Shown here: in pieces, positions 17,920-40,634 of the stretch | Layout: each line of letters opens with the position of its first letter | Position numbering within the stretch: position 1 is the first letter of the stretch | Assembly (NCBI GenBank): GCA_017499595.2 | Contig: CM039010.1 | Coordinates: forward strand, 1,240,001-1,304,000 | Length of the DNA stretch: 64,000 bases | Direction: 5' to 3' | DNA from: Psilocybe cubensis | Lineage: Eukaryota | Notes under the pieces: generated by a model | Seen by the model: only the letters and a program-made list of their open reading frames with translations | Databases searched by the model: none | Told to the model about the DNA's origin: nothing | Program-made: the position numbers and the translations under genes

Positions 17920-18300
17920 GCGGGCTCGCTTCGCTCGCCCCTTGGGATCGAACTCAAACCTATTGAGCCTGAGGAGAGGATGTATTGTTTGCATTTGGTT
18001 TTATTTGACAGATAACGGTGTATTACTTCTTATCTGTTCAAAAAAAAATTATTTTGAGCGCAATACACCCATAATAATTCCAGATCCCTCAACTAATGTA
18101 AAATCTGAGATACTGAACCCACTTCCCCAAAAAAACCTGACGACAATATCAAAACAATTGGCCAACGTGGGGATCGAACCCAAGACCTGGTCCGAGAAAA
18201 GGGGGCGTGCCCGAAGGGTGAGCCGGGGCGGGGCAAGCGATACGAGGAGAGGGGGGAGCCCGAAGGGCGACACCCTCTCCGAGTATTGCACAACAAATCT

Positions 18301-18460: not shown

Positions 18461-18537
18461 AAACTTTCTCTGAATCGGAGAAAGTTTCTTGGCCCACTCC
18501 TCTGACAGCCCAAACTTTCTCCGATTCAGAGAAAGTT
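18461..18537. repeat. Two inverted copies of a palindromic site AAACTTTCTC-N7-GAGAAAGTTT
   Basis: 18461-18487 AAACTTTCTCTGAATCGGAGAAAGTTT; 18512-18537 matches its reverse complement over 26 nt; 24-nt spacer. Confidence 0.9.
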
Positions 18538-18919
18538 CATTGGCACGTCTATTTTTAAACAACTGACGCGCGCAAAGACTAAACGGTTTAGCATACCTAT
18601 TAGTGCAGACTAAAGTCAATTAGCATGTAATGTGTCGGAAACTTCCCAGGTGCATGATCAGGCCGATAATGCCGTTAATGCTAAATTTGTATGATAATGC
18701 CTGATCAGAATTGTAGTCGCATGATCATTAAGCACCAACGTGATCAGGTAGGCCATGATCAGACAACAAATACCTGATAAGATGCATTTGACAAGATTAG
18801 GTGACCCGTAAAATGAGAAGAGTCAAACATGATCAAAAGAATACAAGAGCGTTGCTTGCCTTTAACACATACCTATAAGCCAGATATTGTAATTACAGAG
18901 CATTCATTAAGAGGATGTA

Positions 18920-19005
18920 CTTAGCGGGATTCGAACACATTACCTTGAAAGTTGTTAGATATACGTGAAAGACTTCTTACCTTTAAAACCACTGAGCCAT
19001 TTAGC
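18920..19005 (-). other. Degenerate tRNA-like Pol III cassette (A box and B box) inside the Plavaka element
   Basis: Minus strand TGGCTCAGTGG (A box, ~18989-18999) and GTTCGAATCCC (B box, ~18926-18936); no convincing acceptor or anticodon stems. Confidence 0.45.
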
Positions 19006-19282
19006 TGGATATTAACTGGTTAAAAAAGGTTAACTCGTACCTTTGTAAACATTTAACTCTTGAAGGCGTCACTCTTTGCCTCGCAAGTCGGATGCGCCTT
19101 GCAAATCGGATACACCTCGCAAATTGGATATGCCTCACAAATCGGATGAGATTGACTTTTGCTCTTACAGTAATACCCACAATTTGCAAGGGACTAATAG
19201 CAGTCGGATAATGACAGTAAGTTCAGTTTAAAATCTACACTGGATGTACTAATATTATCAATAGGACATCGACAATAATAAG

Positions 19283-21579
19283 TTATTTCCGTCCTCTTTT
19301 TCCAGAACCCCGGGACCGCGTTGAAGACTTCCCACCTCGTTGCGTGCCTGGGTCATGACTGGTGGGAGAGGAATCATTGGCATTGTCATCGGAATGATGG
19401 GAGGCATTGATTGTGTGAAAAGAAGTATGGGCTGGAAATCTTTCTTCCACGGCTAGACGAGAAGCTATAGCTCTGGACTCGGTGCGTGTTAACCGTTTTG
19501 TCAATGTTGCGACGGGTTCTGATGGATTGGCTTGAGAAGGTAGGGATTCTGTCAAAGGGTCGGCAAGTGTCAATGGATTGATAGTCGTCGGGTTGACATT
19601 GATATCATTGACAGAATCTAAAGTTGGATCGTTGCGGGGCTGTTCATTGAGTGGACGTGCGCCATCGTGATGTGGTTCTTTTTCAAAATTATCAGAGTAC
19701 TCTGCATCTGTAGTCGGACCATGGATAGGAACAAGTACTATAAGCCAGTATAAATTAGTACAGTATTAACAAACATAGTCACAAAAGTTGAATTTATGAC
19801 TTACAATCTGAGCGCATATCTTGACCTTCAATATCGTTGTCTGCATCCTCCGTTTCATCGAAATCTTCTCGATCAAATGCATCAGAATATGAAGACACAG
19901 CAAATTCAGATTCTTCTTCAAGACGCAGACGCTCCATGTCTCGCTCAATTTCGGCAGCTTGATCTAATTCAATAACCTCTCCATCACCATCGTGTCCAGA
20001 TTGTCCATGTGCCGAAATATTGACAGCAAATACTTCACTGTCCCACTCTTTGAGAAGTCTAACAACATACCCTGCAGTTGCCGGATTTGCATGAAGTTGG
20101 GTGAGGTACATTTTGTAATAATTGATCTCGGCATTGTAGTCAATCTTCGTATCGGGTCCAATTCCTGACCCGCCAAACGATTTGTCGCTAGATAAAATAT
20201 ATCTGCACTGATAATAGATGAACGTTGTATATAACAAATAAGGTAGACGGTCCAGCAACTTACAAATCCACAAATATTTGCAATTAGACCAAATGTAGTC
20301 TTTGCAGGCTTGTCCGACCCTAGATAAAAGCTTGAGGCCCGAGACACAGCATTGTCCTTGTCCATAGCGGATGTCTTTCCAAAAAGCGTAGCACGAGCAG
20401 TCTACAATAAGCCACCATAGTTAGTGTGAGCTTTGTAATTAAAAAAAATAAGCAAGTAACTGTTCATACCATATATAGAGACCTGTTTCGAAATCTATGT
20501 TCAACACGGGAGGTATCACCATTTTTACACAGAATAGGTGGAAAGCGAGCATAAGCCTTTTCGGGTGAGGCCTTTCCTGCTTCCGAGTTAGCAAATGCGA
20601 CATTAAATCCCAAAAGCTTCTGAATTTCCGGCATCTTGATTCGTTGGGATGTAAATTTAGGATCAAAGTAATGTGTCGGAAGGCCAAAAATACTGGCTGC
20701 ACAAGACGTTCGAAGCATTGATAATGATGTGGACCGACCAGCACTGAGTCCCTCCCTAAACTGTCGATGTAATTTGCACCCATTCAACAAAACATTAGCA
20801 TTCTATCGACAACTCGTTTAATTTAGAATATTAATGACTTACCAATCGGAGAAATGTTTTACCCTTTGAGCTAGACGCCAACCGCATGATTGGATGATAC
20901 TTGGAGGGAATGTGCTCGTAAAGCTCTAGAGTTGCTCCAATAGCCTCATTAGCTGGTGATTTGTAGCGCTCAACGCTGTCCAAGGCAAATGATGCAGTAG
21001 GTAATGTTGGAGAAAACATGGCAGGTGTAACAAAGAGATTGTAAAACAGTCCAAAATACCGCCCCCATTTTTTCACATCCAGCGCCATATCTGTCACAGC
21101 AGGGTCTACTTCGGATGAAATTGGGTCTACAATAGTGCCTGGAATACTTGCATTTTTAGCATTCTGCACGCGCTTTGGTTGACGTGTGAGCTGTAGCTTT
21201 AAATCTGCAACCTCAGCTTTAAGCTGTGAGTTTGCAGTCTGTAGAGACGAGTAGTCCTTTTGCAGTGTACAGTAGGCCTATGATATGTCAAAGTGATTCA
21301 TTTTCTGTTATTCTATACAGAAGTGTGAATGAACTGCACCTTATAGAGCTGTGTCATGTCTAGAAATTGAGGAACAGCAAAAGATTCTGAAGGATTATTT
21401 GATAGCAAGGAAGCGTTGGAAGAAGAAGTATCTAGTGGGAGTAATGTTCCGGGATCTGTAGCAAGTCCTGGCATTGAATCCACAATAAGAGGAGGAGTGC
21501 TAGTATGTGATAGCATTGGGTGATTGCCAGATGTACTTCTAGCAGAGCTTGGACCTTGGATACGACGACGGGCCATCAC
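19283..21579 (-). CDS. Plavaka companion gene, uncharacterised, multi-exon
   Basis: Co-oriented exons with GT-AG introns: KKWGRYFGLFY, RFPPILC, CRYILSSDKSFGGSGIG...YYKMYL...WDSEVF, then an acidic/low-complexity tail; lies between the TIRs. Confidence 0.7.
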
Positions 21580-22268
21580 TTTTATGTAGTTAGATTATGT
21601 CTACATATGCCTTTGGCTTGTTTTTTTATAAGAGCTTCCCTTCTACCCACTTCCAAATTAACTATAAACAATGTCTTCTATCTACTGATAATGAGGTAGA
21701 TGTGAAAGTATTGTATTTTAGAACAGTCTGAGACACATGCTGCTTGGAAGCGCATGCAATATGATTAGCAGATAAGCATGTTGTAGCTACACACCATTTT
21801 GATCAATGCACCCGGTTGATAGTGAAGGGATTCTCAATTTATTAATTCATCACTAATGCACATGAAATTGCATTGACACCACATGAGCAACTATCTATTG
21901 AGACCTCCACCTGATATGTGAGCGCATTCTAACATGATAGAATGCTATTCTATACTACAAATTAATTGAATCTATGTTTAATTTGTTGAATTTAGCCATG
22001 CCGCTCTCCAAACGCCTGTTACCATGTGCAATTGATTTGTTCTAAGTCAACTTTTTCACGGCTGTGAACTTTCTCACGATGTCGCATTCTTCTTTACTTG
22101 CATTTCAGGATGTGCCGATGTGTTACCGTTGGGCCAAAATTAAGTCTTTCAGTTTAATATGCCTAAATATATATGAAAGCGCAGCAAGTCTAAAGAAAAT
22201 ACCTTTATTTGGGGTGACCATTGACAAGTACAAAGGCAAGTGCAATTAATAGCAGGGCGGACAGTATA

Positions 22269-25200
22269 TTACACATTTGCATGATTAATCAATTCTACAT
22301 GACCTAAATCTGGATTTAAGCGTTCCCACATATCCTGATCAATGAGATCGTTGACCAAAAATTCTGATCCAGTGACATCCGTGCTGTGATTTTTGGATAA
22401 AAGTGCACCCCGAATGATTGTATCAGCATGTATGAAAACAGCTGATGATCTTGGCCGAGACCGAACCCTGATTAATCCCAAGTCTATGTCGCGTCGGCGA
22501 GCCAATAAGGATCGGGGGACATCCATAGGCAAGGCTAGTGCCATATAATATGTTTGATTATGTAGCTCGATACCAAATAGATACAAAAGCTGCACAAAAA
22601 TGCATTGCTTTTGATCAACCTTGATAAGGGCAAAGTCATATCTTTCTTTATGATGGAATTTGGGATTTGTTCGGAGTATATTGCTTTCTACCCGCCAGTC
22701 AATGAGTGATTCATAGAATACCTCAATAGACTGATAGGGTGTGATCTAAGTATTGAGAAATTTGATGTTAGTTCAATGCTTCAAACTGCATGCAAAAGTC
22801 TAAGTCTGATAAAGGTTAAACACTTACTGGATGATCTGTACTCAACAAAACTCTACTTCCAACGGTTTGTGAGAGTGATTGACCCAGCCTTCGTCGGAAT
22901 AAATTAAATGCAGTGTCTTGTGAGTGGATAGTTTCCAGCTCAAGTTCAGACAATGTAATGGTAGGAAGCTTTGATCCAAGATGTATATGGTCATTTCCAG
23001 GCTTAGATTTTGCTGGCAGGTCTAGGCCGTCTCGTTCTTCTGCATCTTCTATATTTTTCTCCACAGAAACATCGAGTAAGTCTATTCCATCACGTACAAT
23101 ATTTGACACAAGATCCATTTCATTGACTTGGAGAATCTAACGAGTTAAAAAGATGTAGTGATTCAGTTATGTATCAGGTAATGCTCACATAAAATAACAC
23201 AGTTCATGGCTTACTTGTGGTGCTACATTCTTGAAATTGGTATGATTCTGATAGAACTTTTTCAATGGTCCGTTTGCCTTCTCATATGGCTTTGTATTAT
23301 AGTTGCGAGTTACGCCTTTATTAAGAATGTCGTCAAATATATGCTGGTGCGTGTGTGTCTTGGGAAAATTCCAAGACTTCTCTGGACTTTCAGATGCATA
23401 CAACTATTTTGTTAAAATTTTGTGACAAAGTAAGCCACAAACCAATATTTGTAAAAGAAACACACCTGAAGAGTTTTGTTGAATATTTCAAGATATTTCC
23501 GGCCATTACTGATTGTTGTTTCCGTTTGCAGAGTTAGTGAAGCAAACATTCGAAGGTTTAGGTAGCTCCGAATTAGCCGTAGTAGTAAGTATCCACGTGG
23601 AGAAGCTTCAGCAGTCAGCACATGTTGAGCAGCAAAAATGATAACCTTGGATAGGTGTTCAAACTTTCGTCCATCAGACATTTCTCCGGTTTTATTTAGT
23701 GCATCAAAGTGGTTGAGTGCAGGCCATGGGGGAATACTTTGCAGACCAAGATCTACACCAACCTCAGCATCTCTACCTAGATCTCTAAGCACTGCTTTTA
23801 GCTCCACCAACATATGTGATTTGAATAGTCCCCCATCATAAGCATGTAGCACATCAAAGGAGAGTGCTTTGTATATATCGGTTCGGTTTATATCCCAGAA
23901 TACATTCTAGAAACATAAAATATAATTTCAGCACAAGAGTAAACAATCACCCTGCTAATGGGCGCTTATTTGAAATATACCATAACATCTGTAATCCCAT
24001 ATGATTTAAGCAGATCTTCGCTCTCTGTTGCATTTAAACTTTGGGAATGAATGTAAATTTGACGCATTTGAGAGGTTGTGCGTCGAGGATACACAGTTGA
24101 AAGGTTGGAAAGCTCGGAATTTGGAACTAAACAAATTGGGCAAGGAAACAGTCCTGTTCGACCTCGTGTCAATGCCATCATTGTCCTGTCAATAAAATTA
24201 TAAATTAGTTATGCTACAGAACTCTACTTTTATAATACAGCTTACTGTTCTTCGTAGTCAGCAGATATTGAGAGAATATGAGGAAAGATATTTCGAGTCT
24301 TTCCATCACCACACTTGATTGCAGCTCCAAAGGTTGCTGGCGCTTCAATTGACTGTAGAATTTTGTGTACGGCCTTATGCCAAATTAACCGTTTAAGGTC
24401 AACGTAGCTGGCTTTGTGAGTATGGGCAGAATCCTCGTCTGGCTATAATGAGAGAAGTTCAAATAATATTAGCAAAGATATGGGCTATTTGAGAGACATT
24501 GAATCATGTAACAAAATAGAGACATACAATGGGTAACCAGCCAATAAGTCGACCTCCTCCAACTCCAGTTCCATTCCGAATATCAACAGGAAGGTTTGCA
24601 CATCGTACCATGACAGGATAGCCTTTGACTGTTCCAAAGGATGATAATTGGGATTTATCTGCCCAAGGATTGATGAACATTACACTAGCGTCATTTGGAA
24701 TGTCTGGCCGTGACTTTGACATATCAAACATTTTGTGAGTAAATAGACTTGATTCTCAATGAAGTATTAGAATTTTGATACCTGGATGTCCCACCAAGTG
24801 TTCGCAGTCCACGGCTCATCAATTATCCGCTCAAACCTCTCTCCTTTATACATGAACAACTGTTCTGCATTCCAGTGAAACCTTCGGACAAGTGCTGGAT
24901 CCAAAAGAAGTTCACGGCACCATTCCCATAGGGGACGGTACCACACATTGTAGGTAAGGCTTTCACCCTTGTAATCGACCGAAATGGGAGTCTTGATAAA
25001 CTAAACCAGTTTTCAACAGGTGAATAATGAATTGTTAAATAAAGTTGCAGTGTGCACGTACTCCCTGTGCACGGGTTTCCCGTGCAAAAGTCCATATTTG
25101 AGTTAAATCGGCATCATTTTTCAGTGTGAATTCATTCGGTGATGCGATGGCTTGATGAATTAGAGCGATAAGCACCTCTAACTGATTATGGCTCAGATGG

Positions 25201-25886
25201 GCGCTAAGAAATATCTCTGCAAACTCGAAGTCAAGACGTGTACGGAACGGGCGCCAAGGCCTCTGGTCCACATTGACCGAGTTTAATGGTGAGTTGCCTT
25301 CGCTTTCAAGCTCGCAGTATTCGTCAAAAGTATAATTTGCATCTGGCATTTGGGAGCTTGGGTGATACTTAATGTGTATGTCTTGAAATTGGGGAGTGTC
25401 AGTGCTGCGAGCTTGCTCAAAATTGACGTCTAATTCAGAATCCTCTTGTATTTCTAAATTACAACATCATCAGTAGCTTCTTATCTGTTTTTCTCTCAAT
25501 TAAATAGTGCTTACCTTCGGAGAATATATTCGGAAAGTTGGGTACTTCTGGTAATATACCGGCCTTGTGATAGTTGTTTGGATGTTGTTGTTGAGCAATT
25601 CGGATAGCATCATCAACTATTAGAAATACAAGCATTAGAAATATGTATGCACAGAAGTAGATACCATCTTTCCATTTCTGCCCTCTTGCTCAGCAAGAGC
25701 AACAAATTCCGTGTCGATTTCCGGTGCGTGACGGTTTGAATTGGCTGGATTGAGTGCGCATCGTCGTTCATGAGCTCCAATTCCGCGAGGAAGGTACATG
25801 TTTGTGCACCAGGTGCACTCAACACGACCAGGATCTGCATGAGACATCATGTGCCCTTTAGATTGAGATGTTTTACGAGGAGGCAT
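22269..25886 (-). CDS. Plavaka transposase, multi-exon
   Basis: N-terminal zinc-finger-like CTWC...HERRC; PWRPFRTRLDFEFAE; EPWTANTWWDIQ; WADKSQLSSFG; SADYEEQ; FPCPICLVP; SFDVLHAYDGGLF; WNFPKTHTHQH...NYNTKPYEK. These motifs are typical of Plavaka transposases. Confidence 0.88.
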
Positions 25887-26856
25887 AATATTTGGTAAGA
25901 GGCTTGTAAGAGAGAAGATAAGGGCGCTATTTGTTCATTTAAGAAAGCACACATTCCACTGTAATTTATACTTTTCTATGTCTTAAGAAATCGAGTTACA
26001 TTAAGCTAGAAGAGTTCTATACCTTCTCTAGAAGTTTACATGTCTACTTTCTTGTGGAACTAAGTGTTCTAAGCATGCTAAACTTTGTAGATGACAAAAA
26101 ATCGAAGCCATTAAAGGCATTTAAAGTGTTCTATTGTCCATTTTATTTGTGTTTAGTATTGTGATATACAATCTAATCATACAACCTAGTGCACAGATTG
26201 CCCGTAGAAGCATAATGTGTGGTGCTATTAGGGTTTTTGGTATGCTTAAACAACTCCAAAGTCTCTAGCAATCGTTTCCTCACGTCGTCTATGACAAGTC
26301 CCTAGTGTACGTTATCTTATCTTAAGGTCATTTATAACATCACACTGCTCTTAGCATTAACAGGAGGCGGTCTCGCTTATCATACCACGTTGTGCATTTT
26401 AGCCCATTAACAATGATCTGATCAGTAAAATTGGGGCAATGATCAGACTAACGCCTGAAAAGGCGATCTAGAGGTTTCCGACATGGCCAGACTTAACAGT
26501 CGCCCCTCTATTCCTTGCTCTCCAACATGTCTACCCAACAGCCCCAACCTAACCCTCAGGTCAACCCAGTGGCTGGCCAGAGCAAGACTCCTTCCTCATA
26601 TGCATTTCGGCAAATGTCTTCCCTTGTATGTCTATCCGTTTCCTATGACCCACTATTTTCTCACTCTCGATACAGGATATCAAACCAAAGGCATGTTTTA
26701 TGTCTTTTTCTACTTCTTCAACTCACATCTTTAAAAGAAATGTGATAATTTTTTGCCCGGACAGACATCATTTTTCATAAATGAGTGGGTTTTCTCTTCT
26801 TTCTTGTCTTTCTTCGCTCATCCTTCACAGAGAATCTCCCACGCAAAAATAAATTG

Positions 26857-27922
26857 TTATACAGTCTGACCCGCAGACGTGCGGTTATCTACGAAATCAA
26901 ACACATAGTCCCTCACGGGACCCCCAATAATGTCCATCAGCTCAACAAAAAATTCCATTGATTTATGCGGCATTTCCCTAGGCGGGGTCTTGAGTGCAAT
27001 TGCCACCATGGACGTAAAAGTAATTGAACGACCAGTTTTTCCGTCTGCGTAGCAAATACTAGGGTTCCAAAAAGCATCCAAGAGAATGCATACCCCAAAC
27101 TATGTTCCATCAGATGTGATTCTCCTATGACATTGTACTCACCTGTTCATACAATTTGGCCAAATCTTTTCTAGCCTTGACTATTTTCTCGTGGCGGTGT
27201 CCAAGCACTACACTGATTTTTTTGCGTTCCAATTCCTCCTCGCCTGCAACCAGGTCTGCAATCACTGCTTCGCGGTAGCGTCCCTTTGTGGCACGGTCAA
27301 GTGTTCCCCACTCTCGTGCATACCGGATAGCTTGGATTATTCCCAGCAAGCCATGTACGTATGATTGCAGCTTGTCATCCGTCTTGATGTCGGCCTGGAG
27401 CATCTCGCGTCTGTACAAACGATCACATACATTTGTGATCTGCTCAATGCTGAAGCTCGCCTCACAGATTGAAATAAACGTCCCATTGTATGCGTATGTA
27501 CCTATATAGTCTCGCTTTAAAATGTCAGCAATGTTGGTATACAATAATATGCCACCTACCAAATTTCCATCGGTTGTGTATCCCCGGTAAAGGCGCAACA
27601 GCGCCCCTTCCTCCCTTGCTTTCTGTCCCAAGCACACTCCAAGGTCATATGCCCAGTCCTGTGCAGTAACGGGCACCATGTCCTGTGCAAGCAGACTGTT
27701 GAAACGAGTCTGCGGTATCATTTTGCCGTCCGTTGGCACCTCTATTTCTCTCCAACAATCAGTGTCTGGCTCAATTCCAGACGCATACATGACCCCGGTG
27801 AGGTGCATGTACATCAGCCCTGCCATTCTATGGAGCCTCGCTATATTGTTTCTGTCGTCCGAATCATCTTCCAATGGTTCGAGTTTTGTGACTTCGGCAT
27901 ATGCCTTTTCCAGGCTCTTCAT
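26857..27922 (-). CDS. Uncharacterised protein, paralog A of a head-to-head pair
   Basis: MKSLEKAYAEVTKLEPLEDD...ASGIEPD...LLGIIQAIRYAREW...LYEQ|FGVCILLDAFWNP; alternative upstream ATGs at 27955 and 27970. Confidence 0.75.
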
Positions 27923-27985
27923 GGTACAAGCAAGAAAGACGCGTCTGAGTGACATCTCGTGACCGCGCATATATTGACCACCACC

Positions 27986-29076
27986 ATGAGACCTTTGAAA
28001 TCTCTCGAAAAAGCCTACCTCGGCCTTGCGCAGCTTGACCCTCTTGAAGAAGACGCAGGCCAAAATGAGATAGAGCAATTACAGTACCTTTACCGCATCG
28101 CAGGCCTTGTTCATTTACAAACAAGTGGCCTCTTGGCGGCGTCGGGTATAGAACCCGATGACGATGAATGGGCCGCACTCGAGTTTCCTGATCAAAACGT
28201 TCCTCCGACGCCGCAAGAACGGTTGACAGAGATTATTCAACACAATTTCTTTGATTCTCCCAATGATGCCGAATACTGGATCCCCAGGATTGTTCAGTCA
28301 CCTGTCAAGGCCAGCATGCTCCAGCAAGAGCAGGTGGCCTTTCTTCATCTTTTCCAGGGATACAACAAGGCAAACAGTATTAATGATTTGGTCAGTTTTC
28401 CTATTTTCTTGCCCAGAATCCTCACTGAACATTGTCAGATCGAGCTTCTTGGCAGCGACGATTATACCGGCACCTTTGATGCCTTGTTCCAACGCATTGT
28501 AAACATTGAAAATAATGCCCACAATCCCAGGCGACTCCTGGCCCGTTTCCACATTTCTAGTGATTTAGAAGCGGACTCGAGGGTCCACAAATTCCTCCAT
28601 GCCATGCTCGGTACCATCCAGGCCATCAAATTCGCTGAAGAATGGGATCAAATGGACAATAGGGGCAAACAGCAATACCGAGAGGAAATGTTTAACGTAA
28701 TCTATCCCTTCCACAATGAAGTGGATACCGCAATTCAGAAAAGGCACAAGGCCACTTTTGCAAGCCGGCACAACAAGGTTGTCAAGAGTCGTCAGGACAC
28801 CAAAAAATTGTTTCAAAAAGTAAATTTGTTATTTTTGTTCCTGAACATTCTCATACCCTGTACCAGTTTGGTGTAGCTGTCCTCATGGATCCCTTCTGGA
28901 ACCCAACAGCATCCTACTTGAGTGGAACCACAGGCAGATCACCTACCTTTCCAGACACTCTCTCACTCGTCCTCGCTCACCCTCACATTCCAGTCAATAG
29001 CACACCGGCATTCCAACAAATTTTGTCTTTATTTGGTGGCGGCATCGAAGAATTTGTCACAAATTTTATACATTAG
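27986..29076 (+). CDS. Uncharacterised protein, paralog B of a head-to-head pair
   Basis: Kozak-like ACCACCATG; MRPLKSLEKAYLGLAQLDPLEED...ASGIEPD...MLGTIQAIKFAEEW...LFQK|FGVAVLMDPFWNP. Confidence 0.78.
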
Positions 29077-32028
29077 CAACCCTACGAGCAAAACACTCCT
29101 TAAAACGACGCGTGTGAGGAGATCCACGATACCATGTTCGCCACTGTGCACGCGTTTGCGGTTGTGCTTTGCCATCCAAGATCATCTCTACCCGTTCTTT
29201 GTACCATCGCTCGTTTGCCGGCGTCCATTCAATCACCTGTCTTCCGTTTCGCACAGATATCCACATGTCGGCAGGTGGAAACCATGACTTGATGGTCGTT
29301 TGACTTTTGCTGTGTCCTATACAGTAATTAGCATAAATATCAATTACGCTCCTGCTATTTTACCTGTGTACATTCCGTATGTTCCACAGAGGATCGCCAG
29401 CTCGCGTTCCGTAAGCTCATCGTCTCCATAAAACAAATTTAAAACCCCCGTCGGAGCTACAAACCCTTGTCGATTCGTCTGGATTTCATGCGAAGGACCC
29501 TCCAAACAGTCACCCAAATCGAGATAGTCGCTCGCGATCCGACCCACCAATCCACCCTTCAACACCGCTGCCCGACCATGCGAGTGTTGCAGCAAGGTTT
29601 CGCACTGGTACTGGTATTCCTTAAAGTCATCCACGCCAAATTGATATCCTGCTGGACGGTATGACACGGGTTGGAATACATCTGCCACCGTCTTGCTTCT
29701 GGTGGACATTGAAAGTCCAACCAGAGTCCGACATGGAACTCCTTTGCTGAGCATCTTGTATGCAATTTCATCTACTGCTAGCAAAGGGTTATCTCTCACA
29801 AGTCGGCACACATACAGTGCAATTTCAACCGATTCCACACCCAACATCCAGTCCGAGCTCTCAGACGGACGTAGCGAAAAAACAAACAGGTTGGGAAGCG
29901 GGCGTTGAACATGGTGCAGTGGTACATCGCAACTCCATGTCCCATCACTGACAATGTCATGGTAAAAGTCGTGGATCGACTGCTGCTCCAATATGCTAAT
30001 TTGGCCCAGATCCGACTGGTTAAAACCAAAGCATTCCACAATGTCCTGCCAATCGTTGGGTGGCCTCAATTCTTTGCACGTTGACACTCCGGTGTATCCA
30101 TAGCTATACCGAATGGTCTCCACGAAATCTGTCGAGGGCATCAGCCACCGGCGTTCTGGTTCACTGGCCTCCTCTGCAACAATGGTGGGGTTTGCTTTAT
30201 CTGCAACGAGGGTGGTGTGGGCTTCCTCTGCAACCATGGTGGGGTTTGCTTCATCTGCAATGATGGTGGGGTTTGCTTCATCTGCAACGATGGTGGTGTG
30301 GGCTTCATCTGCAACGATGGTGGTGTGGGCTTTCTCTGAAACAAGGGTGGGCTGGGGTTCTGTTTGTTTGGATTCACTGCCCTGTTTTGGAGAAAAGAGC
30401 CCGTGGTATGGCTCTGACGACATGTCGTCACTGTCCTCGTCACTGTCGCTTCCCCTTGTGCGGTAAACCAATTCTTTAGGAGGATCAAAAATGCACAAAT
30501 CCCATTCATTTTTTGCAGCATTGTACACTCGACGCCGGGTAGGACAATCTCTATGAGCACTTGAATGGTCGCTTTTCAAAAGTTTGCGACGCACGTAAGC
30601 ATTCATCTCAAACGTCCACGCGTACATTGTTGTTTTCAGCAGAGGAGCAGGTGTTGACATTGGGCGCGGGGGTTTCCTTTTCCACTGGGCCAGCCTGTCC
30701 TGCCAGTACGGAGTCCAATCCGCAAATACCTGGGTGTGCTTATGACCGCCGTAGTCTTCAGAAAAGTCAAATACTTGCAATTCATTGGCTACTTGCACAG
30801 CGTGCGTCTTCAGCTCTTCAGACCTCTCCTTCAACAGTGCGTCAATATCCAATCGGTCCCATTCTGCGCTCATCTCATCCAAATGGTCCCTGTAGTGGTT
30901 GACTATGTGCCGGAAAACAACAGAATCAAATGTCATTTGGCTCATCAATTTCAGGCTCGGAGAATCTGTGTTGTCGTGCATGTTGTGGTATCTGCGAATA
31001 AGCAAGCACCCAATGGGAATATTCTGTGCAGCCGCGGTCCCTAGAACCTCATCGATGACGTCTGTAAGCATTTTGGAAGGTGGTTCAAGACCCTTCCTAT
31101 TGACACGGGACGTTTTCAAAAACTCCTCTTCCACAACCCGCCACGGATAGTACACCGGGACATGGTTCTCCAAAAACACTTCGATGGGTGGCTGAGTTCG
31201 GTGAGTTTGTGTCCATTCATATGCGATTCCAATGCGAGGCGTTCGTGCATTGAAAGAGCACACATTCGAATTGTATATCCCGTCTAGCCATGCCTCCGTG
31301 ATCAAAGGTGTCTGGCGCTCAGGAACCAGCCAACGACATTCCTTCAATGCTCTTTCCATTTCTTCGTCAGCAAGTTTCTCCTGCTCCTCTAGGATTCGCG
31401 TGTGCCATGCAGGTACAGGAAGATTGGGTTGACTTTGTAGGTGCACGGCGTGTTCGGGTCGACGGGATTGCACAATCAGGTAGGACATGAAGCCCATCCA
31501 CAGGACAAAACAATTTCGGCTGATTTCAATCATCTTTTTCGCCACTGCAGATGTTTTGTGGGTCCGCTTGTAGCCAAAATCCCCTGGAAAAGGTGGTGGG
31601 GTGCCAGGTATGCGATACCACAACCGCAGCTTCTCGCACAGTTTCACTATACGCCGTTCACACATGTCCCATTTGTCTCGGTCTGCTTCGTTCATTCCCC
31701 ATGTTTTATCAGTTTTAATCAGCTTCGGTGCCCAGCATAGTGGTTCAAACGGTGTGGCCAGAAAAGTTGGGGTTAAAGGCACGAATGATAGCCATCCATA
31801 GCTGTCCTCCCATCGAACAGGCTGTCTGTAGTTGGCGAGATCTAGGTTGTAACGGGGAGGAATATACGCTGGATCGGACACGTCTGCTGTCATCACAGGT
31901 TCAAAGTGCCTCAACGTGGGCCTCTCATCTTCACCAGGCATAACAACAACTCGTTCACTATTTGGAGAACAGTATATAACACCATCTTGCAAAAAAACAA
32001 CGCCCTTGGTCCAGTCAATGTTTTCCAT
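29066..32028 (-). CDS. Large (~970 aa) uncharacterised protein, probably element-associated
   Basis: 894-aa exon plus a terminal exon after an intron at ~29320-29365. Motifs GRAAVLKGGLVGRIA, DDELTERELAILCGTY, SWFPP, WTPANERWY...W. Contains an internal 9-aa repeat. Confidence 0.78.
30170..30335 (-). repeat. Coding 27-bp minisatellite (~6 copies; EAHTTIVAD/EANPTIIAD)
   Basis: CTTCATCTGCAACGATGGTGGTGTGGG-like units in tandem. Confidence 0.85.
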
Positions 32029-32037
32029 GTTTCGTCT

Positions 32038-32245
32038 CAGGAAGATCTTCCGAGAGAAACGTGTTCGTTACAGGAAGATCTCCTGAAAGACAAGGGTACG
32101 AGTGCTCCCGAGAGAAACGTGTTCGTTACAGGAAGATCTCCTGAAAGACAAGGGTACGAGTGCTCCCGAGAGAAACGTGTTCGTTACAGGAAGATCTCCT
32201 GAAACAAATGGGTACAAGTTTTTCGTCTCGGGAGATCTCCTGAGA
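32038..32245. repeat. 58-bp tandem repeat carrying CAGGAAGATCTCCTG quasi-palindromes
   Basis: Units at 32071, 32129 and 32187, plus degenerate cores at ~32038 and ~32228. Confidence 0.88.
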
Positions 32246-32359
32246 GAAACAAGTACAAGGAACCAATTGAACAAAATTTTTACAAGTCATTCGCATTCGT
32301 GACCCGATTACATAAAGGCTTACCTAATCCATGGACTTCGCGTTACCTGCTTGCTCACC

Positions 32360-32480
32360 ACGCACTCCAGAGATCTCTGGTTTGCAGCCTATCAAAGTGT
32401 ATGCTACCTGCACTCCAGAGATCTCTGGGTTGCAGCCTATCAAAGTGCACGCTACCTGCACTCCAGAGATCTCTGGACTG
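32360..32480. repeat. 48-bp tandem repeat with perfect 14-bp palindrome CCAGAGATCTCTGG (3 copies)
   Basis: Palindromes at 32367, 32415 and 32463. Confidence 0.92.
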
Positions 32481-32647
32481 CAGCAATTGCGTGTCTCTCG
32501 CCTATGCAGTGTGCAAGACTGGGTGTTGGCAAAAAAAACTACGATCACGTGTGACCCTATCGCGTCCGAACGCGTCCCCTCCCCCGCCCCCCCCCCCCCA
32601 CTTCTCTTTCAGACCATCACGCAACTCCCTTTGCATATATCCAAAAC

Positions 32648-33522: not shown

Positions 33523-33879
33523 ACTTGTCGTAATACCGTTTGTCGCCCGAAAATCGTGTTTTCATTCAATAAAGTACTACACTATGTTTTCACTTTTGCA
33601 AATTGCTTCTGGAATACAAGAAAATCGCTACCAATAGTAAAACAAAAATAATGTTTTGTGTGAAATACATGTACTGTGAACAACATGCCTTACACCTATG
33701 AGATACTAATATTATCATAACGAGACTGTGCAAGTACGCGGTCTTTTCACAGACGCGACTGTTACGTTGTGCAGCAAATATATTATTTCTGTACATTGAT
33801 CGTGCACGTGATATACTGCACGTGATTCCATGGACCTCCATAGCCAACACGTCAGCAGCTCTCTCTGGATCTGCTATAC

Positions 33880-34290
33880 TGCACTCCAGAGATCTCTGGT
33901 CTGCGGTACATGCACTCTGGATCTGCAATACTGCACTCCAGAGATCTCTGGTGTGCGGTACATGCACTATCGACTGGCGATTCCGGCACTCCAGAGATCT
34001 CTGGTCTGCGGTACATGCACTATCGACTGGCGATTCCGGCACTCCAGAGATCTCTGGTCTGCGGTACATGCACTATCGACTGGCGATTCCGGCACTCCAC
34101 AGATCTCTGGTCTGCGGTACCTGCACATCTGGCATTGAGAACATGCCACAGCCTATTCCGTCCTCCGGTCCGCGGGTCTCTCCCTACTACTCATATGTTA
34201 CTTGCACTCCAGAGATCTCTGGTCTGCAGCATATCCAAAAATCTGCCCTATCGCTCCCCAGGCCTTGTACACCAGAGATCTCTGGTCGGC
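33880..34290. repeat. 52-53-bp tandem array with CCAGAGATCTCTGG palindromes (7 copies, one variant)
   Basis: Palindromes at 33886, 33938, 33991, 34044, 34097 (CCAC variant), 34209 and 34272. Confidence 0.92.
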
Positions 34291-34815
34291 AGGTCTTAGT
34301 GTGGCCTTCTGCTTTGGTTCTGCAGGCTGACATGAATATGACAGCTGTAAATCATACAAAAGAAGGATTGCATCAAGCACTCTATGCTTCTCCGATTCAC
34401 TGCCAAGATATTGATGTCGATCAAAATGGCCACCCCACAAAGGCAATCCCATACAGAGGTCGAGTCGTTTAACATCGCCCTCAATCAGTGTTGCAACGGC
34501 CAGACACTGTGGGCCAAAAAGTCATGTAAAGGTTGGTGATTTCTACCACTGTTATGTGATTCAAATTCTAAATATCATGTTTTTTTCCTAGGCCTAAAAA
34601 TATGCTGTGCGACGCCTATGATTAATCCTAAAGCAAACACCACCAATCATATGCAGCGGAAAATTGTGCAATCTGTAACTTCATTCTAAACGTCACTTTT
34701 GATACTGCAAAGCACTATTGGTGATATGCATTACACTTTTCATTAAAAAAAAAAAAAAAACTCGTTGAATTAAGCAGTTTCAGGCGAAATTAGTGTGCAT
34801 ATGACGCGCATATAT

Positions 34816-35419
34816 TCACACTGATGCCATATCAAACATTGTAACTCCCACCATAGCAGACTATAGACATCTTTAGAACAAACAATATCATCGCGGACAG
34901 ACTATACTCACATTGGTGGCCTGTTCCAAAAGCAACCTTTTCTGGTCCAACTGGGCCAACTGGATCGTCTTTTGTGCTTCGATGGCCTGACGCTTGGTTA
35001 TCTCCGCTGCCTCCGCTGCCCTTGCTGTGGCTTCCTGGGTCTTCAAGATTTGGATCCTTTCTTGGACTTTGGCTTCTTCAAGCTTTATCTTCTCGGTAAT
35101 CGCGGCATTCTTGAGCAAGCTCTCCATCCGGGTAGCATCAAACAATGACAATGGGGTGGAACAGCTAAAGACAATTAGCATATGCAAGGGCCACTACGCC
35201 AATATTCACTGTTCATTTTCTTTTTCTCTGCTAACTATCAGAATACGGAAGTGGTTATTCAAAATCTTCTTACTCTTCGGAATCCGTTATTGCCTTTCGT
35301 TTGCCTTTGTCACCAATTTTCTGTCTTTTGTTTGCCGGCCTGCGTTTGCTTTTGGGTGCCGCTATGTCTAGTTCTGTAACACTAGAAGTTGAATCATTGA
35401 GCATTTTTACGTCGGCCAT
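34816..35419 (-). CDS. Small basic/coiled-coil protein, divergent from the recombinase gene
   Basis: MADVKML...KSKRRPANKRQKIGDKGKRK (NLS-like), a coiled-coil exon (EKIKLEEAKVQERIQILKTQEATARAAEAAE...) and a short last exon ending TGA at 34816. Confidence 0.6.
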
Positions 35420-35543: not shown

Positions 35544-36793
35544 ATGTCGTCTCACCCCCACATACGAGCCGCATATTTCAGGGTCTCCCTCGATGAAGCT
35601 CAGGAGGCTCTCAAGGATTGCATTGAGAACCTTATGTCGACGACTGCGCCTGCAACTCTGCGCAACAGAGAAAAAATTCGTATGAAGTTCCTCTTCACTG
35701 TGCAAGCGTTCGAACCCGATCTCGAAGAGCATCGTCTCTGGTTCCACGACACTCTTGAAAAGTACTACCAGAAGTTTCTTGTATTTTTGGTTTTAGCACT
35801 CAGACAACCAGATGGCACTTACAAGTGCACCGCTGGAACTATGAAAGAGGCTTATCTGACTTTTTGTTGGCACATTGCCAGATTCGCAGTCGATGCACAA
35901 GGGAAGCTTATAGGCTCCAAGCTTCTTTCAGCAGAGGGGTACCATCAGTTTTTAAAAGATCAGTGTTATACACGTACGTGATTTGCTCCTTATATTTTCC
36001 CTGTTCACGGAGCTCATTTTTCTACAGTAATCACCAAATACAAACTGGCACGCCACCAAAAACCTCGTATTATGCTGACTGAATTCGAACTTCGCCTTAT
36101 CGTTGAACAAAACTTGCTCATGTCACAAAAGTTCAATCGTCTGGTTGCGCTTCAACGCATCTGCCTAGCGTTAACTCTATTCTATACTCTGTGCCGGCCG
36201 GGATCTCTGGGACCTTCGGAAAAGGTCTACAAACAAGATAAAAAAGTATTTACTCCTCCTTTTCTTTCCCTTTTGTTTTCTTATTCCCACCTAGTACCCC
36301 TGTGTCAAACACGTCAAGTTTATTCGTATCGACCGTCTCAAATATCGAGTAAAGTTGCAAATCATGCAGCTCAAAGGGCACAACACCACATTCACTGGCG
36401 AGCAACGCGAATATATTTTAGAGCCGGTCAAGAACTGGTTTAATATCATGTTGGAACATGGGATCTACATGGTTTCTTTTTTTCTCGCCCGCGGATTGTT
36501 TGTAAACATTCATGTACGTGTTTCCTGCCTCTAGTTTTTATTTTCTACAACGGCTTTATTTGCAGACTATTGAAGATCTTGCAAACTCGACCGATCTTTA
36601 TTTGCCAATTGATCCAACACGAATGGAAGAACCCCTATTCTTGGCGAGCGGGCCTGGCGGAAGAGGCTTTAAGGACCCTCCGGAACCAATGGTCTCCACT
36701 GGTATTACCGCTGGCATGAAGACTGTCGCCGTCAATGCAGGCCTACCAGGTGCTACAGCATATGGTTTTCGTTCTCAAGGCGCCATAGACGCA

Positions 36794-36824
<31 letters not shown>

Positions 36825-38958
36825 CCTATGATAACCGCTATACTATTAGGTCAAAAACAAATTTGGCAAAGACGTGGCAGAAACTCTCCTCACCCATATT
36901 GAACCAGGGTCACACAAATTTTACTCCTCCGAAACTGCAGCTTTTGACCTTACTGGCATGATGCTCAATGAGCTGCCTATACCCTTGGATGCAAACAAAA
37001 TGGCAAGTTGAATCTTGGTTTGATGTCTTATCACCTAACCTATTGTTTTAGCACATCATTGAACGTGATTTGATTACTCGTCCTGCTATTATGTGTCTGA
37101 TGCAGATACAACGTGCTATCCGTGCACACCTGCCAAAACAACTGATTGCTCAAGTTGCTCATGCCACAACCAATGAGCGGACGGCCCCCGTCAAACTAAC
37201 TGAAGCTGAGACCATGGAAGCCCATAAGGTATTTAATCTGGTTTTGCAAATTAAACAGTTAATCATTCGGTACTTCTTTAGAACAATCCTAAATTGCAAA
37301 ACCTATTGAAAGAGGAAAGCAGACTTCGCACAGAGTTTCGAAATTGCTTTAGCGACACTCTCACCAATGGCCAACCTTTCCATTACTCTAGCCGAAGCAT
37401 TTCAACAATATTAAATTCCAAGACAGTTATTCGGCTTGTTCCTGATGACAAAATAGACAAAGTAACTGCTTATGTCCTTGATTGATCTCTTTATCTTCTA
37501 ACCATCTCTACCAGGTTGCCGCAGATTATCGAAAAGCTGCCGCGGCTGCAACATCCATGCGATCCAAAGTTGCAAAGGCTGCCAAACGTGACAAGGAAAA
37601 GCAAGTTGTCGCGACCAGGCGTCAGGACACAGCAGGATCCACTGACGACGCCAACAAGGCTATAGCATTGCTCAAACAACCATCCGATTATCTTCTGGTT
37701 CCACAGGCCTCTACCTCCACTCGGATCATAGACTCCATAACCACTGCAGTCGGCTCAGCCTCGATTCTTGAAAGAGCTAAAAGGAAAGAAATAGATCATA
37801 TTATTTCAAAATCTCACATAGATGGCGTGGATCCTTTGCAAGCTGATCCAACCTTCAACGCCATGGTCAAGTTAGTCGCAGCTCGGATGCAAGAAGCTAA
37901 CCTGGGTGACGGAGAGCATGACAATCCCGAGGAAGATATTCCAATTGACCCAGCTCTCCGGAATCTCGATCAATTAATCACCAATGCTACCCCAGTGCAC
38001 AAACGTTCTTCTGCGCCTATATTTGCATCTGATGACGAGTATGAGGATGATGACGACGACGTCGAGGATACTCCAAACAACATTGCTGATCATGAGCACC
38101 CAGACGACACCAAAGTCATAGTTGATATGACCAACTTGCGAATGTGCACTATGGAATCAATTCTCCGCCCCATCATCACCCAAAGAGCCCTGGAAAACAA
38201 TGAAAAGGTGTGTATCAGTTTCCTACGTATTCACAACAGCTGACCAATGAGCAGAACGCCAATGGCAAATATGTTTGCCCACGCTGCACCAAATATTTCA
38301 ACAAAAATCAAGAATTTTCCTCACTTGCACATTTGGAGCGACACATGCAAGTATTATTATGGAGCCTGCTATTTTACCCTAATCCATTTATTTTAGAAAT
38401 GTTCAACATACTGCGTGGAAGGAGCTCATTTTGTTGATGCATGATGCAACCAATGCCGACACATTTATTTGCCCCACTGTGCAGTGCAAATTCAGGCAGG
38501 CTTTTCTACCAAATGATCACCTTGACCTTGACCTTGTTGACGTCTCTTTCAGGGCAACCTCTGAGAAGGCAGTAATTTCACACTGTCTCAAGGAATGTGT
38601 TGATGTGGAAAAATATACACAAATGTGGCAACATCACCAAGAGATGACTCTCGATAGCCGGTCCAGCAAAGGCCAATATAATCTTGTATCAAACGTAACA
38701 ACAGGTGAAATATCAGAACCTAATACCAATCTTCTTCTCGCCTCGTTTTTACCGTTTGCAACCAGTCACCCTGTGAGTTGATTTTATGTAATAAATTTAT
38801 CATCCACACTGACAAAATCAAAGCTTACGTATGGGATCGTTAGTGATGTATTTGAACAGTACGCCAGCTATCAACCGATACAGCAAGAGGATGCTCGAAG
38901 CATTGAGGAGGTGGCAGGTTTTACATACCAAGATTTGATAAATGAGTTTGATGCATAG
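35544..38958 (+). CDS. Tyrosine recombinase, DUF3435 (Starship captain)/Crypton-like, with C-terminal C2H2 zinc finger; multi-exon
   Basis: Spliced translation shows ordered YR catalytic motifs: LFYTLCRPGSL (R), QLKGHN (K), FFLARGLF...PLFLA, AGLPGATAYGFRSQGA (YxxR), LLTH...HKFYS...FD (H, Y); later CPRC...LAHLERHM. GC-AG introns at 36791-36849 and 37003-37051. Confidence 0.75.
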
Positions 38959-39594
38959 TAATCTTGATGGGGGTACTCGGCAGTGCCGTTGTAGCGCCCC
39001 CTCGCTAATGTCGAACCTTGTAGCACTCTTGTAGCTTAGGAATGTTTTCGGTAGAAGTTCGATGTTGTATCATCGACAACGTGTAATTTCATTCCGTGTA
39101 TTCCTTTATCCCATATTATAAAAAGAAATACTGTGGGGAAATGATTTGTGGGACCCCTCCGCACGTCACCCCCATAGTTGCATTCCACGCCTTTGCCCAG
39201 TATCATCTCGCATTTCAATATCCACTAAATCCCCTGCAAGTGTTTTGGAAACGTAAAAGTAAGCATTTCGTCGTTCCTCTGGTGGCCGAAAGATGGCAGC
39301 AAGTTCATCTGATCGTCTGAACTTTTGATTATATGCTTTCTGGAAAACAGTGATCTTTTACCAGACAAACATTTTACAATTATCCAGTGAATCAGGTGGT
39401 GATTTGTCTACGCATCATGATGTGTCAGTTCTCAGCAGTCGCCGAGCTCAAGCTTGGAGCAATCAGCAGGTCATTCGGCAAGCCTTAAGAAGAAGAGCCA
39501 TATTATCATCGAGCAGTCTGAACTTCCGGCACTTACGGAGAGGTTGACTCGTCCTTTATCTGTCTTTCCAACTTCACCTCGCTTGCACCGCGAC

Positions 39595-40634
39595 ATGAAC
39601 GAGGCTGGGGAATATGCCATATTCCCGCTCACAGTCTTTGATAGACTGTTCGAACGTACTACATTCGTCACAGGGTGGCTCATAGAAGGAACCATCGACA
39701 CCGCTGCCCTTGTCTCTGCATTACAGAGGGTCACTGAGAAATGGCGGATGTTATCAGGTAGACTGCAATCCACAGAACAGAATAATGTATGTCTTTCGCT
39801 TTCTGTCGCATCCGATAAAGGTCGACCCTGCCATTAGAGCGTACAGTGGTTTCTCAAAATTCCCCTTGGTCGACTACCCCATGATTATGCGACATTTAGC
39901 TTGACAACTTCGACTTCAACCACTCCTCTCTCGAAATATGTCAAGATCCCAATACCTTCTGTGTCTACATCTCTTCCTTTGGACGTGTTCCTCCATCCAT
40001 CTACTCCCAAAAGTTACACGGTTTGGGAATCCAGCAACCACCCCCTGACATGCTGGAATATTACCTATTTTCCCGCCGCCAGCAATGGGGGTGTAGACTA
40101 CACATGCATTGGATTCGCGAGAAGCCATGGAATATTTGACGGAGGAGGAGCTGCGCTGGTGATCAACGCGCTCGTCGCAGAACTGAATGGCCGCGATTGG
40201 GAAGTGCCACCTCTACCTCAGGCAGGACTGAATGTCAACCCTTTAGACGACGTCCTTGCGCGAGCGGCACAGGCTATTCAGTATTCCACTCCAGCTGATG
40301 CCTTTCCTGCCTATACAGTCGTTGGACCTGGTGGTGTTTTGAAGTTGGCAGCGTCGCATGTGAAGGAGCGGTTCTGGGCTGGCGCGGATCGACGCATAAT
40401 CCTATTGCCAAAAGTTGTTCTAGATACTCTCGTCGAGGAGGTCAGGTCTTCCCTGCGCAATGGGCAGAAGACAGTTGAGCATGTTACCACCGGTGACGTC
40501 TTGGTCGCCTGGATATTTAAAGTACGCACGCATCACCTTGTCTGTGGTTTATTTATCCATCTTTTTCTGTGCAGACGGTTTACGCATGCAAAAGTAATAT
40601 GTACAAAAAACGGATAAAAAGTAATCAACGATGA
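39595..40634 (+). pseudogene. CoA-dependent acyltransferase (HXXXD transferase family), apparently 3'-truncated
   Basis: ARSHGIFDGGG (HXXXD) and TTGDVLVAW. After the 40522-40574 intron the frame runs into AT-rich sequence and stops at ~310 aa; no C-terminal half is seen. Confidence 0.6.

What the first reader, a model, noticed from the sequence alone, without database searches (positions are those of the whole stretch)
26857..29076. Head-to-head pair of diverged paralogs with almost no intergenic space
Seen: the minus and plus genes are homologous along their length (KSLEKAY, ASGIEPD, G.IQAI..A.EW, RH.K.VK.R.D..KL, FG...L.D.FWNP, G.TGRS.TF) and share intron positions (LYEQ|FG vs LFQK|FG, plus a probable in-frame internal intron after ..L|GT). 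Their ATGs are only 15-63 bp apart (27922/27970 vs 27986), so transcript 5' ends probably overlap or share one micro-promoter. Both stayed open despite deep divergence. Inference: an old inverted duplication kept as a co-regulated pair, for example a heterodimer, toxin-antidote or self/non-self module carried by the element.
Basis: partly seen in the sequence, partly recalled or inferred. Interest (0 to 1): 0.72.

Follow-up and report, generated by a model that had tools for sequence, protein, structure and literature searches.

The report
Back-to-back twin genes of unknown fold
Two old, still-intact copies of an unnamed mushroom gene sit back to back only 63 bases apart among mobile-DNA genes; the arrangement is real, but nothing found shows that the two proteins need each other or act as poison and antidote.

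Summary
The minus gene (325 aa) and plus gene (331 aa) are 33% identical, each has two phase-0 introns at matching places, and their ATGs are 63 bp apart. Silent sites are saturated, both frames are open and allelic pN/pS is about 0.2-0.4, so both have been under purifying selection.

They belong to an unnamed family of mushroom-forming fungi (111 other representatives; no Pfam family) with a confidently predicted all-helical fold (pLDDT 87) and no PDB match. They are each other's closest full-length relatives, so this is a lineage-specific inverted duplication. Agrocybe pediades independently has two adjacent paralogs (orientation unknown). The one homolog read in its DNA context is a truncated singleton.

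Corrections: the pair is outside the neighbouring Plavaka transposon (18633-26483, a nested insertion) and lies in a single-copy mobile-DNA-like island with no ends found. The intron sites are family-wide, and overlapping 5' ends are not needed. One strain has an early stop in the plus gene with the minus gene intact, which counts against an obligate pair and against plus-as-antidote.

Best reading: two co-promoted, non-obligate paralogs of a transposon-associated accessory protein. Expression and binding are untested.

The parts
26857..27922 (-). MINUS gene, 325 aa, three exons (27922-27560, 27514-27143, 27099-26857)
   Evidence: same as public model P0003; AlphaFold2 pLDDT 87
27515..27559 (-). 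minus intron 1, 45 nt, phase 0, in frame
   Evidence: spliced in P0003
27100..27142 (-). minus intron 2, 43 nt, phase 0, before FG
   Evidence: spliced in P0003
27923..27985 (.). 63-bp spacer, the inferred shared core promoter: 10-bp palindrome AGACGCGTCT (27937-27946), an AT-rich box about 50 bp before the minus ATG, a pyrimidine run before the minus ATG, a CCACC context before the plus ATG
   Evidence: read from the sequence; promoter function is inference
27986..29076 (+). PLUS gene, 331 aa, three exons (27986-28390, 28439-28819, 28867-29076)
   Evidence: public model P0002 agrees up to intron 2 and then uses another acceptor
28391..28438 (+). plus intron 1, 48 nt, phase 0, in frame
   Evidence: spliced in P0002
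28820..28866 (+). plus intron 2, 47 nt, phase 0, before FG
   Evidence: homology of the next exon to the minus gene and the family
28082..28082 (+). site of a nonsense allele (codon 33) of the plus gene in run X7
   Evidence: one contig, depth 27.4 of 27.4
18633..26483 (.). context, not part of the pair: nested PlavakaA transposon (TGTCGGAAAC inverted ends, TG duplication), inserted 373 bp beyond the minus gene's stop
29344..32030 (-). context: about 890-aa ORF of a multi-copy family that lies beside Plavaka transposases at some loci; converges on the plus gene

Best explanation
A single gene of an unnamed, transposon-associated Agaricomycete family was duplicated and inverted long ago in this lineage (shown: homology, tree, saturated silent sites). 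Both copies stayed full length and kept the family's conserved polar residues (minus numbering E104, K198, H229, R236, D253, R269, S270; shown), so both probably keep the ancestral activity. They are most likely transcribed outward from one core promoter in the 63-bp spacer (inferred). The proteins are soluble and all-helical, with an acidic loose linker and a conserved basic long helix (model and sequence). I read them as nuclear accessory proteins of a mobile-DNA island that bind nucleic acid or chromatin and help the island's genes stay expressed or move (inferred from neighbours and charge only). The two act side by side with overlapping roles and may mix in oligomers, but neither strictly needs the other.
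For: Sister position 99/99, with a minus-type fragment from another source inside the clade. Codon position identity 50/62/32%, and a neutrally mutating plus frame stays open in 12 of 300 runs at 0.1 and 0 of 300 at 0.2 substitutions per site. Columns at least 60% conserved in the family are kept at 30 of 34 (plus) and 28 of 35 (minus). Allelic changes in runs X7 and X9: 13 silent, 11 non-silent, pN/pS 0.23-0.36, binomial p 0.0005-0.01; no coding indels in the main contigs. Plus-null allele with intact minus gene. Singleton homolog on L041. Mobile-DNA surroundings: nested Plavaka, multi-copy neighbour ORF with a Plavaka transposase at 3 of 13 loci scanned, palindrome arrays, stray decayed pieces of the minus gene. 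Near-identical family copies on different contigs in Flammula and Lentinula. One homolog's gene model is fused to a KOW/SPT5-like protein (below Pfam's cut-off). No 19-residue hydrophobic stretch above 1.1.
Against: No transcript of either coding region and no start site was seen. No ends or mobilising enzyme of the outer island were found, and it is single-copy in this genome, so mobility is not shown. A family profile finds no member in the 10 kb downstream of 18 of 18 other loci of the neighbour ORF, so the family is not a regular passenger of those elements here. The molecular role rests on neighbours and charge only; no fold or family match gives it. 11 non-silent changes including a stop, many of them C>T/G>A, fit recent relaxation. 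The independent adjacent pair in A. pediades fits selection for two partners better than mere redundancy.
Confidence: 0.5

Rival explanations
1. Obligate heterodimer: the ancestor was a homo-oligomer; after duplication the two subunits co-diverged and now work only together, made in equal amounts from one promoter. The same switch may have happened independently in Agrocybe pediades.
For: 63-bp spacer kept intact despite saturated silent sites. Independent adjacent paralogs at 36% identity in A. pediades. One Hymenopellis model holds two copies of the domain at 42% identity.
Against: Plus-null allele with an intact minus gene in X7, although the stop may be young. Single truncated homolog on L041. 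Galerina's two consecutive models cover complementary halves and are more simply one split gene.
Confidence: 0.2
2. Selfish toxin-antidote or spore-killer module: one paralog poisons cells, nuclei or spores lacking the island and the other neutralises it. Only plus = toxin, minus = antidote fits the data.
For: Mobile-DNA setting and tight linkage. Loss of the toxin with retention of the antidote is what X7 would show. X11 raw-read depth on the pair averages 15.4 against 35 nominal, which could mean presence in one nucleus only, but no single-copy control was laid.
Against: Both copies keep the same conserved polar residues, so neither looks like a disabled decoy. No Pfam or NCBIfam family is shared by members. 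The pair is single-copy in this genome. Alleles differ by about 1%. Plus-as-antidote is contradicted by X7.
Confidence: 0.12
3. Silent or decaying relic: the pair was selected while its element was active and is now methylated, unexpressed cargo that has only begun to decay.
For: Nonsense allele in X7; C>T and G>A dominate the differences; decayed extra pieces of the minus gene exist; CpG is depleted (0.70-0.81 against 0.86-0.94 in the flanks); a Plavaka landed 373 bp from the minus gene.
Against: Allelic pN/pS is well below 1 for both genes (0.27-0.42 plus, 0.17-0.25 minus), although per-gene p values run from 0.01 to 0.07. No frameshift in the main contigs of X7 and X9.
Confidence: 0.12
4. 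Self/non-self recognition locus, like the divergently transcribed fungal HD1/HD2 mating genes or Tetrahymena MTA/MTB.
For: Head-to-head genes from a common ancestor, as the abstract of PMC7786109 says of MTA/MTB.
Against: Alleles in three other runs are about 99% identical or show no listed difference, with no divergent specificities. No homeodomain or other recognition family and no membrane segment.
Confidence: 0.04

Closest known systems
Accessory (non-transposase) genes of Agaricomycete Plavaka/KDZ elements, e.g. Pfam DUF6698, DUF6532, DUF6830 and TET/JBP passengers (Kojima 2025, PMC12730594: abstract, section 3.2 and one word search read)
   Same: Unnamed, lineage-restricted helical proteins found in mobile-DNA islands of mushroom-forming fungi. 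ESM Atlas features point weakly to DUF6698 and DUF6532 clusters (0.87, lead only).
   Different: No Pfam match for any of 107 aligned members beyond noise; hhalign to the window's DUF6698-like exon gives probability 0.1%; the pair lies outside the Plavaka's ends.
Tetrahymena mating-type gene pair MTA/MTB (PMC7786109, abstract and outline read)
   Same: Head-to-head genes derived from one ancestor and kept over a long time.
   Different: MTA/MTB specify self/non-self with several specificities (and are membrane proteins, recalled). This pair is soluble and nearly monomorphic among the strains seen.
Fungal poison-antidote drivers wtf and Spok, including Spok on the Enterprise Starship (PMC5478261, PMC8092012: search listing only)
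   Same: Orphan-like genes in a mobile-DNA setting with a recombinase-like gene nearby.
   Different: No sequence family shared. wtf and Spok put poison and antidote in one gene (listing and recall), not in two inverted paralogs. No killing shown here.
Head-to-head co-regulated gene pairs of fungi, e.g. in dimorphic Mucorales (PMC12957363, abstract and outline read) and basidiomycete HD1/HD2 (recalled)
   Same: Divergent genes sharing a short control region.
   Different: Those pairs join different, functionally related families; here both genes are one family, the spacer is only 63 bp, and there is no homeodomain.

Membership tests
Inverted gene duplication with shared bidirectional promoter | Two homologous genes in head-to-head orientation | tested here: met
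   33% identity, 204 bits, ATGs 63 bp apart
Inverted gene duplication with shared bidirectional promoter | The two copies are closer to each other than to relatives elsewhere | tested here: met
   Reciprocal best hits; clade 99/99 with one minus-type fragment, 42 of 115 rows used, bootstrap not fully settled
Inverted gene duplication with shared bidirectional promoter | Both copies under purifying selection | tested here: met
   one nonsense allele of the plus gene seen
Inverted gene duplication with shared bidirectional promoter | Both transcribed from start sites in the spacer and co-expressed | not testable with these tools
   No RNA holder listed; contigs cannot show starts
Cargo of the PlavakaA transposon in this window | Lies between the element's inverted ends and target duplication | tested here: not met
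   Element is 18633-26483; three other copies and the empty site lack the pair
Cargo of a larger (outer) mobile element | Defined ends, a mobilising enzyme, other copies or an empty site | tested here: inconclusive
   No end repeats found; single copy; only a left-end fragment on C12; recombinase-like gene nearby has no Pfam match
Toxin-antidote / killer meiotic driver (wtf, Spok type) | Sequence relationship to a known driver family | tested here: inconclusive
   No Pfam or NCBIfam family shared by members; no fold match
Toxin-antidote / killer meiotic driver (wtf, Spok type) | Antidote cannot be lost while the toxin is intact | tested here: inconclusive
   X7 has plus null and minus intact: against plus as antidote, silent on minus as antidote
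Toxin-antidote / killer meiotic driver (wtf, Spok type) | Killing of cells or spores that lack the locus, rescued by the partner | not testable with these tools
   needs expression tests and crosses
Obligate heterodimer | Physical binding of the two proteins | not tested
HD1/HD2-type or MTA/MTB-type self/non-self pair | Homeodomain or membrane recognition domain | tested here: not met
   No homeodomain by Pfam; no hydrophobic segment
HD1/HD2-type or MTA/MTB-type self/non-self pair | Several deeply divergent alleles in the species | tested here: not met
   Main contigs of X7 and X9 differ at 21 and 22 letters in about 2.9 and 2.5 kb; X11 shows none of the listed coding differences; only 3 DNA runs laid

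The most novel reading that the evidence does not exclude
An undescribed protein family with a fold not in the PDB, carried in mushroom mobile-DNA islands, repeatedly and independently turns into two-gene modules of diverged paralogs (here head to head on a 63-bp promoter, adjacent in Agrocybe pediades, tandem in Hymenopellis) that act as a hetero-oligomer or as a toxin (plus) with its antidote (minus). That would be a first candidate two-paralog selfish module in mushroom-forming fungi.
Probability: 0.2. Interest if true: 0.78.

Novelty: new member of a known kind. Interest (0 to 1): 0.42.

Why it matters
The arrangement (inverted duplication on a shared promoter) is a known kind, but the protein family is unnamed, widespread in Agaricomycetes and has a confident helical model with no solved match. 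That makes it a tractable target for a new fold and for learning what accessory genes of mushroom mobile DNA do. The 63-bp spacer, if it drives both genes, would be a very compact bidirectional promoter for mushroom genetics. If the pair proved to be a heterodimer or a poison-antidote module that arose more than once, it would bear on selfish elements in dikaryotic fungi. A natural plus-null allele makes that directly testable.

Tried and rejected
Word-index protein searches found only the public models of these two genes, or those plus one relative; the family appeared only in the exhaustive profile search. The first structure prediction with a 4-row alignment failed (pLDDT 36). Fold searches of the good model: no Foldseek match at E <= 0.001 in PDB or BFVD; best VIA-align Z 4.4 among 48,161 chains, none at 5 or more. 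This shows neither that the fold is new nor that it differs from known ones. PDB sequence search gave only helical noise. ESM Atlas: no usable hit for the plus exon, leads under 0.9 for P0004. hhalign to the DUF6698-like exon and to the neighbour ORF gave nothing. No RNA holder was listed and run X13 had no contig on either coding region apart from 18 bases of the minus gene's end: no evidence either way. Metagenome scan with the minus protein found 0 relatives among 68 pattern hits. The spacer word CGCGCATATATT occurs 47 times in the genome against 2 for its reversal, but 40 of the other 45 sites read show no fixed distance to an ORF, so it was rejected as promoter evidence. Intron sequences of the two genes are no longer alike (43 and 175 of 500 shuffles score as high). 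Long ORFs downstream of the neighbour-ORF homologs are repeat-derived, not family members. No end repeats for an outer element were found. The 115-row tree did not finish; a 42-row tree was used. Five literature searches brought up no paper on this family, but it has no name to search by and subscription papers are not held, so absence from print is not shown. Iyer et al. 2014 on KDZ/Plavaka neighbours was not held and is recalled only. No supplements were read; those of PMC12730594 list Plavaka families and might hold family members.

Full report
1. The observation. The window is from a mushroom-forming fungus; the only close database matches of the two genes are two consecutively numbered hypothetical proteins of Psilocybe cubensis. 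The minus gene runs 27922-27560, 27514-27143, 27099-26857 and gives 325 aa, reading the same as the public model. The plus gene runs 27986-28390, 28439-28819, 28867-29076 and gives 331 aa. They align end to end at 32.8% identity, 204 bits; the local score was 494 against a maximum of 63 in 1000 shuffles. Each gene has two phase-0 GT-AG introns at matching places. The public model of the plus gene uses a later acceptor for intron 2 (28876) and ends in 14 unrelated residues; the 28866 acceptor restores a 69-residue exon that matches the minus gene and the family. The homologous ATGs are 63 bp apart. These are the only two family members found in the genome, with four different protein queries.

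2. Age and selection. Identity by codon position is 50%, 62% and 32%, and 8 of 34 four-fold sites agree, so silent sites are saturated. A plus frame mutated at random stays open in 12 of 300 runs at 0.1 substitutions per site and 0 of 300 at 0.2. Of family columns conserved at 60% or more, the plus protein keeps 30 of 34 and the minus protein 28 of 35, including all strongly conserved polar residues: E104, K198, H229, R236, D253, R269, S270 in minus numbering. I laid 4 of 14 listed runs. The main contigs of X7 and X9 cover both genes without coding indels; all 22 differences of X9 and 20 of 21 of X7 were shown. In coding sequence they give 13 silent and 11 non-silent changes, pooled pN/pS 0.23-0.36, binomial p 0.0005-0.01 depending on the transition bias assumed; per gene p is 0.01-0.07. 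One non-silent change is a stop at codon 33 of the plus gene in X7, whose minus gene shows only a Leu-Met change. This rests on one contig, may be recent, and the next in-frame Met (112) lies just before the conserved core. Still, it shows that plus-null with minus-intact exists.

3. The family. A profile search of 1.84 billion representatives returned 113 proteins at E <= 0.001, two of them the pair's own models. I looked up 30 of the other 111: 24 are named, all hypothetical proteins, from 18 species of Agaricales and Boletales; 6 have no name. No Pfam or NCBIfam family is shared by the 107 aligned rows. With that alignment AlphaFold2 gives a confident all-helical model of the minus protein (pLDDT 87, pTM 0.77; residues 56-65 loose). 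No fold search gave a clear match, which does not prove a new fold. The proteins have no hydrophobic segment and are acidic overall, with a basic long helix. Many fragmentary models of relatives run off at the same two intron sites, so the shared introns are a family trait and say nothing special about this duplication.

4. Do relatives come in pairs? In a 42-row tree (chosen from 115 rows, bootstrap not fully settled) the two genes form a clade with one 143-aa minus-type fragment from an unnamed source (99/99), so the duplication is lineage-specific but older than this species' alleles. Three Agrocybe pediades members form their own clade (100/99). Two of them have consecutive locus tags and accessions and overlap in the family alignment at 36% identity: an independent adjacent pair, orientation unknown. 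A Hymenopellis model holds two copies of the domain at 42% identity. Two consecutive Galerina models cover complementary halves and are more simply one split gene. The one homolog read in its DNA, on the 8.9-kb metagenome contig L041, has no second member in 2.1 kb upstream or 5.8 kb downstream and is itself cut short. For the other species adjacency is untested. So duplication into neighbours recurs (2 cases besides this one) but is not shown to be the rule, and a second head-to-head case is not shown.

5. The surroundings. The Plavaka transposase left of the pair belongs to a separate 7,851-bp element, 18633-26483, with TGTCGGAAAC inverted ends and a TG duplication, which fits PlavakaA as defined in PMC12730594 section 3.2.2. 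It has three full-length copies on C1 at 100, 93 and 92% that stop at the same ends. The empty site is present on C12 and, linked to the whole pair on one contig, in X7. The pair is therefore not Plavaka cargo. It lies in an outer island of roughly 18.2-39.2 kb between host-like genes. That island holds an ORF of about 890 aa with 78 matches in the genome, palindrome arrays and a single-copy gene with motifs that I recall as tyrosine-recombinase-like (no Pfam match). A Plavaka transposase lies beside 3 of 13 scanned loci of that neighbour ORF, but none of 18 such loci has a member of the pair's family in the 10 kb downstream. The island is single-copy and I found no end repeats. Pieces of the minus gene's 3' part lie elsewhere: on C12 here, and as decayed copies in X7, X9 and X11. 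Three long homolog models join the domain to other parts: one KOW/SPT5-like (Pfam E 0.0008, under the cut-off) and two that share a stretch (E 3.5e-10) I read from memory as JmjC-like. Unchecked earlier notes of this scan list such genes as Plavaka passengers in this genome. A link to mobile DNA is thus likely, not shown.

6. The spacer. The 63 bp contain a 10-bp palindrome, an AT-rich box about 50 bp before the minus ATG followed by a pyrimidine run, and a CCACC context before the plus ATG. That leaves room for two back-to-back start sites, so overlapping 5' ends are possible but not needed. This is inference. A 12-base word from the spacer is over-represented in the genome but shows no fixed distance to ORFs and is not used as support. 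There is no evidence on expression either way.

7. How it most likely works. Shown: an old inverted duplication, two constrained full-length proteins with the same conserved polar residues, and a mobile-DNA neighbourhood. Inferred: outward transcription from one small promoter, and a nuclear, nucleic-acid- or chromatin-binding accessory role for the island, with the two copies overlapping in function and not strictly dependent on each other (0.5). Rivals: obligate heterodimer (0.2; favoured by the kept spacer and the independent Agrocybe pair, weakened by the X7 stop and the singleton), toxin-antidote (0.12; only plus = toxin, minus = antidote survives X7), silent relic (0.12), self/non-self locus (0.04; alleles are nearly alike).

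8. Known systems and novelty. It resembles Tetrahymena MTA/MTB in layout (PMC7786109, abstract and outline), Mucorales head-to-head pairs (PMC12957363, abstract and outline) and wtf/Spok drivers in setting (search listing only), but meets the defining features of none. It is best filed as a new, unnamed member of the accessory-gene families of mushroom mobile DNA, here in an unusually tight inverted duplication. Five searches brought up no paper on the family, which has no name to search by. Interest 0.42; the bolder reading, a recurrently evolved two-paralog module, has probability about 0.2 and would merit about 0.78.

Noticed in passing
window 18633-26483: Complete PlavakaA transposon with inverted ends and TG duplication, carrying a transposase and a DUF6698-like gene (weak Pfam hits); three more full copies on C1 at 100, 93 and 92%; empty site on C12 and in run X7.
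   Followed up: yes
window 28820-28876: The public model of the plus gene (P0002) uses acceptor 28876 and loses the conserved last exon; homology supports 28866.
   Followed up: yes
window 35544-38960 (+): Single-copy multi-exon gene with motifs I recall as tyrosine-recombinase-like and a Cys/His-rich end; no Pfam match, no second copy in the genome. Candidate mobiliser of the island or a separate Crypton-like element.
   Followed up: partly
window 29344-32030 (-): About 890-aa single-ORF family with 78 matches in the genome and no Pfam domain; found beside Plavaka transposases, and in 29.5-kb repeated units on C15 next to an ORF that looks like a reverse transcriptase by eye (L029:2040-4256, no Pfam hit at 0.001).
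   Followed up: partly
window 32047-32483, 33877-34294 and 18461-18537: Arrays of short palindromes (core CCAGAGATCTCTGG and variants) on both sides of a small gene, and a double palindrome near the island's left end.
   Followed up: no
window 26581-26874 (+): Run X13 (RNA is a guess) has a 220-base contig that skips 26785-26832 with GT..AG ends on the + strand: a spliced transcript converging on, and overlapping the end of, the minus gene. It could come from this locus or from the C12 fragment.
   Followed up: partly
L040:4928-5685 (G000:C12) and runs X7, X9, X11: Stray pieces of the island's left end with the 3' end of the minus gene, some heavily C>T/G>A mutated with broken splice sites; the C12 piece abuts a tRNA-like half.
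   Followed up: partly
window 39234-40587: 1.35-kb stretch duplicated at 99% on C4, where it follows a tRNA-like sequence that ARAGORN did not call.
   Followed up: partly
window 18149-18188: Short tRNA-3'-like piece, matching several places on C7, directly before the point where homology with the C12 fragment begins.
   Followed up: no
window 27964-27975 and 34805-34816: The word CGCGCATATATT occurs twice in the island and 47 times in the genome against 2 for its reversal, with no fixed relation to ORFs.
   Followed up: yes
window 49396-49866 and 50754-51224: Tandem duplicate of a small gene at 83% DNA identity.
   Followed up: no
L041:4792-5598: A degenerate polyubiquitin-like ORF 1.7 kb downstream of the truncated family homolog on the metagenome contig.
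   Followed up: no
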